A stretch of 32,000 nt of DNA from an uncultured archaeon (GTDB lineage Archaea; Asgardarchaeota; Thorarchaeia; Thorarchaeales; CAZPUN01), in NCBI GenBank assembly GCA_964589775.1, contig CAZPUN010000021.1, positions 60,001-92,000 of the forward strand, read 5' to 3'. Each line of letters starts with the position of its first letter. Position 1 is the stretch's first letter. This document shows, one piece after another, positions 16,377-19,417 of the stretch. The translations under genes were made by a program, and so were the position numbers. The notes beneath the pieces are model-generated. The model searched no databases, had not been told where the DNA came from, and worked only from the letters and a program-made list of their open reading frames with translations.

Positions 16377-16464
16377 ATTATTGCATAAGTATATGTAGAA
16401 AGTATGCTTTTTATAGCGGTAATAAATCGCCTAAACGTTCATAAAAGCATATAAAATAGAATAT

Positions 16465-16636
16465 GTACTTTGAGGACTTAGAATAGGTTACGAGTTTGAT
16501 ATTTCGCATCCAAAAGGTCCTCAAATTGGAGTGATTATCAAGATCCCTCACTGTAATATCGCGAATATATTCGTGAATGATTATCATAAGGTAGTCTATA
16601 CGCAAAATTCTCGTATCTCAATGTGGAAAGTATCAG
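16465..16636 (+). repeat. Copy A of diverged ~165-nt structured repeat (candidate ncRNA)
   Basis: Aligns by eye with 17964-18131; TTTGAGGAC/GTCCTCAAA inverted repeat; GATTATC/GGTAGTC stem. Confidence 0.75.
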
Positions 16637-17089
16637 GATCTCCATTTGTTCTTATAATAAGTATTTTTTATTGCATAAGCATAGCGTGATCGAAACCTTT
16701 TGAAGAGAATGATGTTTTTGCCGAAATGTTCATAAATGGCTGTGTACAGTTTATGAATGCAATGGGCGAAGTATATTATAAATAACAGTATCAACTTTAA
16801 GATGTCTCTGAGTTTGTTCATAGATATTAAGCAAACCTTAGGCAATGGCAGATTCTCGTATGACGAAGTGTTAGAGCCGATTCTTCAATAACAGATTCAA
16901 AAATGAAAATTTGTATGTCCCAATAGACACACAAAAGATCCATGTTAATAGAGATCTCCTGCTGCTGGTATAGTGCGTATATATGTACGAAATGGCTATA
17001 TTTCCATACATATATACTCAGAATATCCAAAGCTTATCGCAATAAGTATGCCATTAGTATCCGAATTTAATATAAAATGGTGAAATACA

Positions 17090-17836
17090 ATGATATTAGA
17101 ATTTCCAGATATGAATGACTTTATTGTCTTCATGATTGCAGTTGGATATGCTGGACTTGTAATAATTATTGGTGATTTGCTTAAGCGAAAAGCCAATTTA
17201 GATACAGGATTCACTAGAAAAATAATTCATATCTTCGCCGGTATGGCTACTTTTTCAATTCCATATTATACACATCCATGGATGGCTATTTTTGTCGCAT
17301 TGATCTTCGTAATAATTCTTGGATTAGCCAATTCAAATCGTTTTTCGTCTGCGTTTTCAGCTATGGCTCGACCTGAAGAAATTGAGCAAGGCTTACTAAA
17401 AGGTCCTTTCATTTATTCGATTTCGATTACGCTGTTAGTTTCAATCTTTACATTGCTCGATAAAACTCAATATTATTTTCTTGCTGCAATTCCGCTTCAA
17501 ATTATGTATTTTGGTGACGGTCTTGCTGCTCCAATTGGAATAAAATATGGCAAACATGAATGGATCATTAATGGTTCAAAGCGAACGCTTGAAGGCACAA
17601 TGGGTTTAATTTTATTTGGATTTATTGGTGCAATATTTGCTGGCTGGTTCTTCGGAATTTATAATTATGGAATCCTCACGTGGCAATTATTATTCTTCTA
17701 TTCGATAATTGCGATCATAGTTGCTGCAATTCTTGAGTTTATTTCTCCAAAGGGTCTAGATAATTTTGTTCTCCCAATTGGAACATGTGTTGTCCTAGTT
17801 TTTATTGCAATCTTAAATGGATTGTTAATAATTTAG
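17090..17836 (+). CDS. SEC59/DGK1/VTE5 family CTP-dependent polyprenol (phytol/dolichol) kinase
   Basis: TRKIIHI, GPFIY, GDGLAAPIG.KYG, KRTLEG, LE..SPKGLDN; multi-TM; GGTGA SD. Confidence 0.88.
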   Translation: MILEFPDMNDFIVFMIAVGYAGLVIIIGDLLKRKANLDTGFTRKIIHIFAGMATFSIPYYTHPWMAIFVALIFVIILGLANSNRFSSAFSAMARPEEIEQGLLKGPFIYSISITLLVSIFTLLDKTQYYFLAAIPLQIMYFGDGLAAPIGIKYGKHEWIINGSKRTLEGTMGLILFGFIGAIFAGWFFGIYNYGILTWQLLFFYSIIAIIVAAILEFISPKGLDNFVLPIGTCVVLVFIAILNGLLII

Positions 17837-17923
17837 TGAATCTCCTTATTTTTCTTTATTTTTACTTTTTTGAAATAAGATGGCTACAAGGAACTTGTTG
17901 TTTTGTAGGTTGCAATAAATTAT

Positions 17924-17940
17924 CAAAAAGTTAATAAAAG
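17924..17940 (+). promoter_or_regulatory. Candidate BRE-TATA promoter for repeat copy B
   Basis: CAAAAAG-TTAATAAA about 25 nt upstream of the start of the structured element. Confidence 0.4.
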
Positions 17941-17963
17941 TCTGAACTTATCAAATAAATTAA

Positions 17964-18187
17964 GTAATTTGAGGATTTAGAATGGGTTGCGAATCTATTC
18001 GCATCCAAAAAGGTCCTCAAATTGAAGCGATTCACAAGCTCCCTCATTGGGGTGCCGCGAGTATATGTGCGAAATGGCTATCTCAAGGTAGCCTATACGC
18101 ACACTCGTATCTCGATGTGGGGGTTTGTCAGAGAACATAGAATTCCTATGTGAGGTGTATGTTGGTAGGCTTACGCGTTGCATTTTT
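17964..18187 (+). ncRNA. Copy B, candidate multi-hairpin ncRNA of unknown family
   Basis: Hairpin 17966-18023, ~95-nt hairpin 18034-18128, ACATAG/CTATGT hairpin, T-run at 18183-18187; G-U pairs favour the + strand. Confidence 0.55.
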
Positions 18188-18545: not shown

Positions 18546-18616
18546 GTTTAATTGTTTTATTGCTTATTTTTTATCATGACGAAAGTAATATATTGTGTTT
18601 TTGTTTGCTAATACAT

Positions 18617-18895
18617 ATGATAAAGAAATTATTACAATTAATACAAAAAAATGGTATATCTAGTCGTTCTATTTTGGCAAAAGAAATGAATATCTCTGTT
18701 GAATTATTAGATTTGATGCTCACAGATCTGCAACGCAAGGGATATATTGAGGTTAACAAAATACCTGATGGGACGTCATGTGAAATATGTCCATTTCATA
18801 AAATTTGCAAAATTTCAAAGGAAGAATGCGAATCTAATAATCAACAAACACTCAGATTAACTAAAAAGGGTCTTGATTTTGTAAATTCACAATAA
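18617..18895 (+). CDS. FeoC-like winged-helix protein with Cys cluster
   Basis: wHTH (LAKEMNIS.ELL..ML..L.RKGYI) plus CEICPFHKIC; start revised to ATG 18617. Confidence 0.78.
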   Translation: MIKKLLQLIQKNGISSRSILAKEMNISVELLDLMLTDLQRKGYIEVNKIPDGTSCEICPFHKICKISKEECESNNQQTLRLTKKGLDFVNSQ

Positions 18896-19417
18896 TGATT
18901 TCTGTCGGACTTTTTCTAAAATACGTTCTACAAGTTTTTGGAATGCTTCTTCAACACCAATTGCATTTTTTGCGGATGCTCTTACATATTCAAGGTCATA
19001 TTTTTCTACCACTTTCTTTACATTTTCCGGGTTAGTGTTTGATGGTAAATCAATTTTGTTCTCTATTAGTATGACCGGTATTTTTGAATTGACCTCATAT
19101 AATACATTTAACCAATCATCGATCGTATCTAATGTTTCTGGTTTAGTTGTATCAAAAACAAAAAATGCACCCGCTGCATTCTGATAATATGCTCTTCTTA
19201 AATTTCTAAAACCTTGTTGTCCTGCAATATCCCAAATAACTAATTTTACGGTTAAATTTTTTACTTGTACGTGTTTAACGTGAATGTTGGTTCCCAAAGT
19301 TTTCAAATAGTCTTGACTGAAACTATCATAAACGAATCTACTGACTAGACTAGTTTTTCCAACTTTGCCTTCTCCTAGAAAGCAAACCTTGAATAAATAT
19401 GTATTACGAGTTTCCAC
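18887..19417 (-). CDS. Rab-like small GTPase (Ras superfamily)
   Basis: G1 GEGKVGKT, G2 T, G3 WDIAGQ, G4 NKID, G5 SAK; GTG start with GGAGG SD; no C-terminal Cys prenylation motif. Confidence 0.93.
   Translation of the reverse strand: METRNTYLFKVCFLGEGKVGKTSLVSRFVYDSFSQDYLKTLGTNIHVKHVQVKNLTVKLVIWDIAGQQGFRNLRRAYYQNAAGAFFVFDTTKPETLDTIDDWLNVLYEVNSKIPVILIENKIDLPSNTNPENVKKVVEKYDLEYVRASAKNAIGVEEAFQKLVERILEKVRQKSLL

What the first reader, a model, noticed from the sequence alone, without database searches (positions are those of the whole stretch)
16465..18187. Duplicated multi-hairpin non-coding element: candidate new Asgard ncRNA family
Seen: 16465-16636 (A) and 17964-18131 (B) are colinear diverged direct copies ~1.5 kb apart, flanking the polyprenol kinase gene. 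Shared blocks include TTTGAGGA, TTCGCATCCAAAA, GGTCCTCAAATTG, AAGGTAGyCTATACGCA and CTCGTATCTCrATGTGG. Both copies form hairpin 1 (TTTGAGGAy/GTCCTCAAA with an inner stem) and the apical stem of hairpin 2. That stem shows a compensatory change: GGCTATC/GGTAGCC in B versus GATTATC/GGTAGTC in A (G-C to A-U). Indels are not multiples of three, so conservation is not protein-coding. Wobbles read G-U only on the + strand. Each copy has a TATA-like motif upstream and a T-run downstream (16664-16669, 18183-18187). Inference: independently transcribed ~200-225-nt structured RNAs. They match no tRNA, SRP, RNase P or C/D pattern I recognise. A is AT-shifted and pairs less well, so it may be decaying.
Basis: partly seen in the sequence, partly recalled or inferred. 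Interest (0 to 1): 0.85.

Follow-up and report, generated by a model that had tools for sequence, protein, structure and literature searches.

The report
Gene-less IS200/IS605 mini-transposons with guide-RNA module
The two look-alike hairpin-rich stretches are old copies of a roughly 260-base, gene-less miniature transposon found about 44 times in this archaeal genome; it carries a promoter and a folded RNA of the kind that guides TnpB nucleases, which is a known kind of selfish DNA and not a new RNA gene family.

Summary
The repeat is real, but it is not a two-copy duplication. A and B belong to a family of about 44 intergenic copies in this 2.16-Mb archaeal genome, and a third, degenerate copy lies between them.

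Each full element has this layout: TTAC | 18 nt ending in AAAG, a left-end hairpin, a BRE/TATA promoter, an RNA module of five hairpins, GAAC, a right-end hairpin, and AGTATGTCAG |. Cleavage sites, guide tetranucleotides and spacings match those of IS608. There are no terminal inverted repeats, no target duplication and no ORF.

A genome of the same order carries an IS605-type element with tnpA and tnpB. It has the same TTAC, AAAG and GAAC and an identical last 10 nt. One subfamily of the mini-elements still keeps the first 7 nt of tnpA, joined to the region just after the last catalytic motif of tnpB.

The elements are therefore PATEs (palindrome-associated transposable elements) that carry an omega-RNA-type scaffold. 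This kind is already described, and this scan reached the same verdict on another piece of this genome and in other archaea.

The copies decay neutrally. Stems and loops have diverged equally, and G-U does not outnumber A-C. No TnpA or TnpB was found in this assembly.

The parts
16381..16384 (+). Left cleavage/target tetranucleotide of copy A. It reads TTGC, one change from the family's TTAC.
   Evidence: 21 of 28 left junctions read TTAC and the other 7 differ by one base. The sequence was read.
16385..16636 (+). Copy A, a whole mini-transposon (252 nt). Its parts are: 18 nt ending in the guide AAAG (16399-16402); left-end hairpin 16403-16422; BRE/TATA about 16431-16447; RNA module 16465-16636; right-end hairpin 16609-16628; tail AGTATCAG, which ends in TCAG.
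   Evidence: CM R2 scores it 152.6 bits. 83% of the consensus pairs form.
16675..17054 (+). Copy A', a degenerate third element (380 nt). Its left end and promoter (16675-16745) resemble those of A, including the junction TTATTGC|ATAAG. The P3-P5 part of the RNA module lies at 16952-17054 and ends in AGTATGCCAT.
   Evidence: Repeat families D13, D14 and D6. nhmmer hit at C21:76952-77053. Alignment A4.
17866..18131 (+). Copy B. The left boundary is uncertain (17866-17877) because the left end is degenerate; a TTAC lies at 17862-17865. BRE/TATA 17926-17939; RNA module 17964-18131; right-end hairpin 18103-18122; tail GTTTGTCAG, which ends in TCAG at 18128-18131.
   Evidence: CM R2 scores it 167.1 bits. 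89% of the consensus pairs form. Fold -92.3 kcal/mol.
17090..17836 (+). Host ORF (248 aa) between A' and B. It is not part of the element. B starts about 30-40 nt after its stop codon.
   Evidence: No Pfam hit.

Best explanation
A, A' and B are copies of a non-autonomous, protein-free derivative of an IS200/IS605 (IS608/IS605-type) transposon, that is, a PATE.

The parent element carried tnpA (a Y1 HUH transposase) and tnpB (an RNA-guided nuclease). An internal deletion removed both genes. It left the left end (the guide AAAG plus a hairpin), the tnpA promoter, the 3'-terminal region that encodes the TnpB guide (omega) RNA scaffold, and the right end (the guide GAAC, a hairpin and the cleavage site TCAG).

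Inferred mechanism: such elements are excised as single-stranded circles and pasted 3' of TTAC by a TnpA supplied in trans. The promoter would drive an RNA that runs through the scaffold into the right flank. That flank sequence would serve as the guide for a TnpB supplied in trans.

In this genome neither protein was found and the copies are old and decaying neutrally. They are therefore most likely relics. They are not maintained in each copy.

Shown here: the anatomy, the copy number, the IS608-rule ends, shared ends with a tnpA+tnpB element, and the absence of selection on the fold.

Inferred: transcription, the omega-RNA function, and past mobilisation by TnpA.
For: Copy number and subfamilies:
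- 44 nhmmer hits, all intergenic, with unrelated neighbouring genes.
- About 28 hits span the whole RNA module including hairpin P1 (sf1, about 265 nt). About 10 lack P1 (sf2, about 195-220 nt).

Boundaries and ends:
- Conservation begins right after TTAC and ends at ...AGTATGTCAG.
- Geometry against IS608 (PMC3201880; PMC5934647):
  - left cleavage site: TTAC in both;
  - left guide: AAAG in both;
  - distance from the left cleavage site to the hairpin foot: 18 nt here, 19 nt in IS608;
  - right guide and cleavage site: GAAC/TCAG here, GAAT/TCAA in IS608, which is a paired change at the fourth position;
  - right cleavage site ends 10 nt 3' of the hairpin foot, against 10 nt in IS608.
- No terminal inverted repeat and no target-site duplication.

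Autonomous relative:
- L098, from genome G031 of the same order, carries tnpA (PF01797, 136 bits) and tnpB (NF040570, 185.6 bits; zinc ribbon and DHADVNAAFNIA motif).
- It has TTAC|...GAAAG plus a hairpin plus ATGAATAGC at the left end, and GAAC plus a hairpin plus the identical AGTATGTCAG| at the right end.
- Three independent left junctions in G031 read ...TTAC| with variable bases before it.

Origin by deletion:
- sf2 copies keep ATGGAAC, the start of the tnpA ORF.
- That start is joined to sequence that aligns with the tnpB codons just after FNIA.

Fold:
- The sf2 RNA and the last 146 nt of the G031 element fold alike. A closing helix ACAUA(C)/(G)UAUGU encloses several hairpins, the last being the right-end hairpin.
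- 76.3% of pair cells form pairs, against 39-47% when the partners are slid. There are 87 double-change cells against 56.5 +/- 7.4 in shuffles.

Literature: PATEs that 'often encode omega-RNAs' acted on in trans are described in PMC10055086.
Against: - No Y1 TnpA and no TnpB were found in this assembly, which is 96.75% complete. The best weak zinc-ribbon hit is TiaS.
- No empty site or insertion polymorphism was seen. The only metagenome contig with the left end is the same filled locus.
- The interior of the RNA module does not align to the tnpB 3' region of the G031 element beyond the last 40 nt or so (R1 scores only 7.5 bits). The omega-RNA identity therefore rests on position, architecture and the deletion junction, not on sequence homology to a proven omega-RNA.
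- sf1, the subfamily of A and B, lacks the 5' strand of the closing helix. It has an extra hairpin P1 of unknown origin.
Confidence: 0.85

Rival explanations
1. A family of independent, functional small RNA genes of the host. Each copy is transcribed from its own promoter and the fold is maintained by selection.
For: - The BRE/TATA box is conserved at a fixed distance upstream of the module.
- B folds strongly (z -7.6).
- Double changes exceed those in shuffles.
- No Rfam family matches.
Against: - Stems (24.3%) and loops (23.8%) have diverged equally from the consensus. G-U (168) does not exceed A-C (159).
- Copies form 57-92% of the consensus pairs, in a continuum.
- The copies are bounded by IS608-rule transposon ends that are shared with a tnpA+tnpB element.
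- The promoter is homologous to a tnpA promoter and is followed in sf2 by the tnpA start codon.
- The element is absent from 86 other genomes of the class.
Confidence: 0.04
2. Some copies are exapted relics. Copy B is the candidate, because its left end is destroyed, so it can no longer move, yet 89% of its RNA pairs survive. Such a copy might now serve the host, for instance as a regulatory RNA, as a promoter or terminator for neighbouring genes, or as a guide for a nuclease or repressor not recognised here.
For: - B has a degenerate left end but one of the best-preserved folds.
- Many copies sit directly downstream of co-oriented genes.
- The genome keeps about 44 promoter-bearing cassettes although no TnpB was found.
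Against: - B lies within the continuum of decay.
- There is no family-wide selection signal.
- No partner protein was found.
- No orthologous copies in other genomes are available to test conservation.
Confidence: 0.07
3. A classical MITE, mobilised by a DDE transposase through terminal inverted repeats and with a target-site duplication.
For: Short, AT-rich-context, multi-copy, intergenic and ORF-less.
Against: - The two termini are not inverted repeats of each other.
- There is no direct duplication at the flanks. The left flank is constant (TTAC) while the right flank is variable.
- The hairpins are subterminal, with IS608 spacing.
Confidence: 0.02

Closest known systems
PATEs (palindrome-associated transposable elements) of IS200/IS605. 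They were named in Haloquadratum walsbyi (PMC3119063). PATE-like, protein-free, omega-RNA-encoding elements were reported in Geobacillus stearothermophilus (Meers et al., PMC10055086).
   Same: - Protein-free and a few hundred bases long.
- Bounded by IS200/IS605 left and right ends with subterminal hairpins.
- Multi-copy.
- Carry the omega-RNA region next to the right end.
- Depend on TnpA and TnpB supplied in trans.
   Different: - This is a new sequence family in an uncultured archaeon.
- No TnpA or TnpB was detected in the same assembly.
- The copies are old: median pairwise identity is about 61% over model columns.
- The larger subfamily carries an extra 5' hairpin (P1) in place of the 5' strand of the closing helix.
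IS608 (ISHp608) of Helicobacter pylori, the model for end recognition in IS200/IS605 (PMC3201880, PMC5934647)
   Same: - Left cleavage site TTAC and left guide AAAG are identical.
- The right cleavage site lies 10 nt 3' of the right hairpin.
- The left cleavage site lies 18 nt 5' of the left hairpin, against 19 nt in IS608.
- No inverted repeats and no duplication.
   Different: - The right guide and cleavage site are GAAC/TCAG instead of GAAT/TCAA.
- The hairpin sequences are unrelated.
- There are no genes.
- The host is an archaeon.
IS605-type element of the related genome G031 (L098, about 1541 nt, tnpA + tnpB)
   Same: - TTAC target.
- ...GAAAG plus a hairpin plus ATGAAT.GC at the left end.
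- A TATA-like box before the ATGGAAC start.
- GAAC plus a hairpin plus the identical AGTATGTCAG at the right end.
- The same overall fold of the last 140 nt or so.
   Different: - Hairpin stems and the first 18 nt differ.
- The interior of the RNA region is not alignable.
- It is a cousin of the parent, not the parent.
TnpB omega-RNA (reRNA) of ISDra2-type elements and the archaeal sotRNAs.
   Same: A structured RNA encoded at the 3' end of tnpB, ending at the transposon's right boundary, with the guide taken from the flank.
   Different: No cognate TnpB is present here. There is no sequence or Rfam model to compare with, and no expression data.

Membership tests
IS200/IS605 transposon ends (IS608 rule) | A constant target/cleavage tetranucleotide immediately 5' of the left end that is not part of the element | tested here: met
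   21 of 28 left junctions read TTAC and 7 differ by one base. The bases before it vary. The same TTAC precedes three independent left ends of a different element sequence in G031.
IS200/IS605 transposon ends (IS608 rule) | Subterminal imperfect palindromes at both ends, with no terminal inverted repeats and no target-site duplication | tested here: met
   Left hairpin CATCGCTTT/AAAGCGGTG. Right hairpin CCTCGCAT/ATGCGGGG (helix 8, 79.8% of cells paired, 6 of 8 pairs with double changes). The flanks show no duplication.
IS200/IS605 transposon ends (IS608 rule) | A four-base guide 5' of each hairpin foot that matches its cleavage site, with IS608-like spacing | tested here: met
   In the consensus the left guide AAAG goes with TTAC, as in IS608. 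The right guide GAAC goes with TCAG, against GAAT/TCAA in IS608, a paired change. Spacings are 18 nt and 10 nt, against 19 and 10 in IS608. Individual decayed copies are too noisy for a per-copy test.
IS200/IS605 transposon ends (IS608 rule) | A Y1 (HUH) TnpA that acts on these ends | tested here: inconclusive
   None was found in the own genome. A tnpA+tnpB element with homologous ends exists in G031. TnpA was found in only 3 of 40 same-order genomes.
IS200/IS605 transposon ends (IS608 rule) | Observed mobility (empty sites or insertion polymorphism) | not testable with these tools
No close relative is held. The one metagenome contig is the same filled site.
PATE (protein-free IS200/IS605 derivative) | Both transposon ends are present but there is no transposase or other ORF, and the element is multi-copy | tested here: met
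   The elements are 195-275 nt long with no conserved ORF, and there are 44 hits. The deletion junction keeps the tnpA start ATGGAAC.
TnpB omega-RNA | A structured scaffold encoded at the tnpB 3' end that stops at the right-end boundary, with the guide taken from the flank | tested here: inconclusive
   The position and the multi-hairpin fold with a closing helix match the 3' region of the G031 tnpB element. The interior is not alignable. sf1 lacks the 5' strand of the closing helix.
TnpB omega-RNA | A cognate TnpB in the genome | tested here: not met
   NF040570, PF07282 and PF01385 all fall below their cut-offs in G000. TnpB is present in 33 of 40 same-order genomes.
TnpB omega-RNA | A transcript with a defined 5' end and a guide-length 3' extension | not testable with these tools
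Any Rfam 15 family | A score at or above the gathering threshold | tested here: not met
   There were 0 matches in the window. Around the element only chance-level miRNA-like hits appeared.
Functional structured ncRNA family (generic) | Purifying selection on the fold: stems more conserved than loops, G-U tolerated over A-C, and few broken pairs | tested here: not met
   Stems have diverged 24.3% and loops 23.8%. G-U 168 against A-C 159, p = 0.66. 24% of pair cells are unpaired.

The most novel reading that the evidence does not exclude
The genome keeps a library of about 44 promoter-bearing guide-RNA cassettes although it has lost, or never assembled, both TnpA and TnpB. One or more immobilised copies may have been taken over by the host. 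The candidate is B, whose left end is destroyed but whose fold is 89% intact. Such a copy could act as a regulatory RNA, or it could work with an RNA-guided protein that current profiles do not recognise. The subfamily-specific 5' hairpin P1 would then be a new functional RNA domain.
Probability: 0.06. Interest if true: 0.6.

Novelty: new member of a known kind. Interest (0 to 1): 0.2.

Why it matters
The main value is for annotation. About 44 hairpin-rich intergenic blocks in this genome, several of them flagged separately as candidate ncRNAs, have a single ordinary explanation. The covariance model built here can mask them.

The case also adds an archaeal example of PATEs that carry a promoter plus an omega-RNA-type scaffold. 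The deletion junction is unusually readable: the tnpA start codon is fused to the codons just after the last catalytic motif of tnpB. The host lacks detectable TnpA and TnpB while most genomes of the sister family have TnpB. That contrast is a small data point on how these elements die out.

Tried and rejected
- **Rfam and tRNA scans.** Rfam at gathering and E-value thresholds and ARAGORN found nothing relevant.
- **RNAalifold on a plain MAFFT alignment.** It returned no consensus structure. The cause was register errors. A structure transferred from one copy (C37) was off by one column in three helices. I corrected it by hand, then built CM R2 and realigned.
- **TnpB and TnpA in the own genome.** None was found. 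The 437-aa ORF with a weak zinc-ribbon hit is TiaS.
- **CM search of other genomes.** It covered 40 same-order genomes, then all 86 other genomes of the class. No copy was found.
- **CM search of 12 TnpB loci of relatives.** No similarity. The TnpB in L087 has an unrelated 3' end.
- **Public-collection scans.**
  - The left-end pattern in metagenome contigs gave only the same locus as copy C27.
  - The RNA-core pattern in genome contigs gave 0 hits.
  - A protein-based scan meant to name the organism gave nothing.
- **Classical MITE with inverted repeats and a duplication.** Rejected from the flanks.
- **Per-copy covariation between guide and cleavage site.** Not attempted beyond the consensus, because the copies are too decayed.

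Full report
**Observation**

Window 16465-16636 (A) and 17964-18131 (B) are colinear diverged repeats. Mean column identity is 80%, and the repeat families lie at a spacing of about 1497 nt. B folds into a very stable structure on the + strand (-92.3 kcal/mol, z -7.6). The - strand is weaker (z -4.0). Rfam 15 and ARAGORN find nothing.

**It is a dispersed family, not a pair**

A DNA search of the window's own genome (2.16 Mb, 64 contigs, 96.75% complete) followed by iterated nhmmer gives 44 hits to a core of about 190 nt. All are intergenic and their neighbouring genes are unrelated.

- About 28 hits span the whole RNA module, including the hairpin I call P1. This is subfamily sf1, which includes A and B.
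- About 10 hits lack P1. This is subfamily sf2.
- A few hits are fragments.
- One fragment lies between A and B. Together with a left end and promoter at 16675-16745, it forms a degenerate third copy, A' (16675-17054).

**True extent and anatomy**

It stops sharply at the 3' side. The consensus element reads as follows:

- TTAC | AAACACTCTGCGAGAAAG
- left-end hairpin CATCGCTTT-AGA-AAGCGGTG
- ATGAATCGC
- BRE/TATA (AAAAGTTAATAAA)
- about 23 nt
- RNA module: helices P1/P1b (sf1 only), P2, P3, P4a/P4b
- GAAC
- right-end hairpin P5: CCTCGCAT-CTCA-ATGCGGGG
- AGTATGTCAG |

The left flank reads TTAC in 21 of 28 junctions, and the rest are one change away. The right flank is unconserved. The termini are not inverted repeats and there is no target duplication.

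**Match to the IS608 rule**

For IS608 the literature gives these values (PMC3201880; PMC5934647):

- Left cleavage site TTAC, which is outside the element and 19 nt 5' of the hairpin foot.
- Left guide AAAG.
- Right guide GAAT.
- Right cleavage site TCAA, which is inside the element and 10 nt 3' of the hairpin foot.

The element here compares as follows:

- TTAC and AAAG are identical.
- The spacings are 18 nt and 10 nt.
- The right guide and cleavage site are GAAC and TCAG. This is a paired change at the fourth position relative to IS608.

This is the signature of single-strand 'peel-and-paste' IS200/IS605 elements.

**An autonomous relative**

The own genome has no Y1 TnpA and no TnpB. The best weak hit is TiaS. 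In the sister family of the same order, TnpB occurs in 33 of 40 genomes and TnpA in 3 of 40.

One of those genomes, G031 (locus L098), carries a complete IS605-type element:

- TTAC|GATAAAAGTGGTAGAAAG
- hairpin, then ATGAATAGC
- TATA-like box
- tnpA (PF01797, 136 bits)
- tnpB (NF040570, 185.6 bits; zinc ribbon and DHADVNAAFNIA motif)
- GAAC, then a hairpin, then AGTATGTCAG|

. The target, both guides, the ATGAAT.GC motif and the whole terminal decamer are the same as in the elements here. Three independent left junctions in G031 all read TTAC|, with variable bases before it. TTAC is therefore target, not element.

The sf2 copies retain ATGGAAC, which is the start of tnpA. It is fused to sequence that aligns with the tnpB codons just after FNIA. 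The mini-elements therefore arose by internal deletion of a tnpA-tnpB parent. Their promoter is the tnpA promoter. Their RNA module is the stretch from the tnpB 3' end to the right end, which in this transposon family encodes the TnpB guide (omega) RNA.

The sf2 RNA and the last 146 nt of the G031 element fold alike. A closing helix, ACAUA(C) with (G)UAUGU just before the boundary, encloses several hairpins, the last being the right-end hairpin. The interior is not alignable (R1 7.5 bits). G031 is therefore a cousin of the parent, not the parent itself.

**Is the fold maintained?**

I built a covariance model and found register errors in it. I corrected the structure and realigned. The results on the corrected alignment are:

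- 76.3% of 1708 pair cells are standard pairs.
- Column-preserving shuffles give 73.6%, and slid partners give 39-47%.
- 34 of 49 pairs show double changes.
- There are 87 double-change cells, against 56.5 +/- 7.4 in shuffles (0 of 500 shuffles reach the observed value).

The source elements therefore had a real, covarying structure. Part of it, P5 and the left hairpin, is needed as DNA hairpins for TnpA.

Within copies there is no sign of selection:

- Divergence from consensus is 24.3% in stems and 23.8% in loops.
- At consensus Watson-Crick pairs there are 168 G-U against 159 A-C (p = 0.66).
- Copies form 57-92% of the consensus pairs, in a continuum. B forms 89% and A 83%.
- Median pairwise identity is about 61% over model columns.

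The copies behave as old, neutrally decaying relics.

**Distribution**

The model finds no copy in 86 other genomes of the class. A metagenome scan with the left-end pattern returns one contig, which is the same filled locus as copy C27. A genome-collection scan with the RNA core returns none.

**Comparison with what is known**

Protein-free IS200/IS605 derivatives (PATEs) were named in Haloquadratum (PMC3119063). Meers et al. note PATE-like elements that 'often encode omega-RNAs' to be acted on in trans by TnpB encoded elsewhere (PMC10055086).

An earlier follow-up in this scan, on another piece of this same genome (e1-5597071), reached the PATE verdict. Similar elements were reported in other archaeal genomes. 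I re-derived the verdict independently here. I add three things: the G031 autonomous relative, the deletion junction, and the neutral-decay tests.

**Verdict**

The promoter-plus-structured-RNA part survives as the omega-RNA cassette of a mini-transposon. The element is a new sequence family of a known kind, and interest is low.

It is an archaeon, and a Ras-family GTPase lies at 18887-19417.

Noticed in passing
window 16675-17054: A third, degenerate copy (A', 380 nt) lies directly after A. A and A' share the variant left junction TTATTGC|ATAAG, where the family has TTAC|AAAC. They look like sister copies or a local tandem duplication. Another first-stage note (e1-5578411) flagged this stretch as a hairpin-packed segment closed by terminal inverted repeats.
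   Followed up: partly
window 18887-19417 (- strand): A Ras/Roc/Arf-family small GTPase (Ras 144 bits) lies next to a small winged-helix ORF at 18560-18895. This fits an Asgard-like archaeon but does not prove it.
   Followed up: no
   Followed up: no
L087:497-547 (- strand; genome G031): A 48-nt mini-element: TTAC|, then the left guide and hairpin, fused directly to the right-end tail AGTATGTCAG. This may be the smallest possible derivative of the related IS605-type element.
   Followed up: no
L098:1866-2993 (genome G031): The tnpB reading frame of the autonomous relative stays open through the right end and into the flanking DNA, up to the end of the fetched locus. No stop codon lies inside the element.
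   Followed up: no
G000:C64:26147-26224 and G000:C21:44449-44487: Partial extra right ends (the P4-P5 part only) lie in tandem, immediately 3' of full copies.
   Followed up: no
G000, whole genome compared with same-order genomes: TnpB is found in 33 of 40 same-order genomes, with up to 34 matches in one genome. It is not found at all in this genome, which nevertheless holds about 44 of the mini-elements. Several copies lie within about 1 kb of contig ends (C3, C25, C46, C48, C50, C53, C10).
   Followed up: partly
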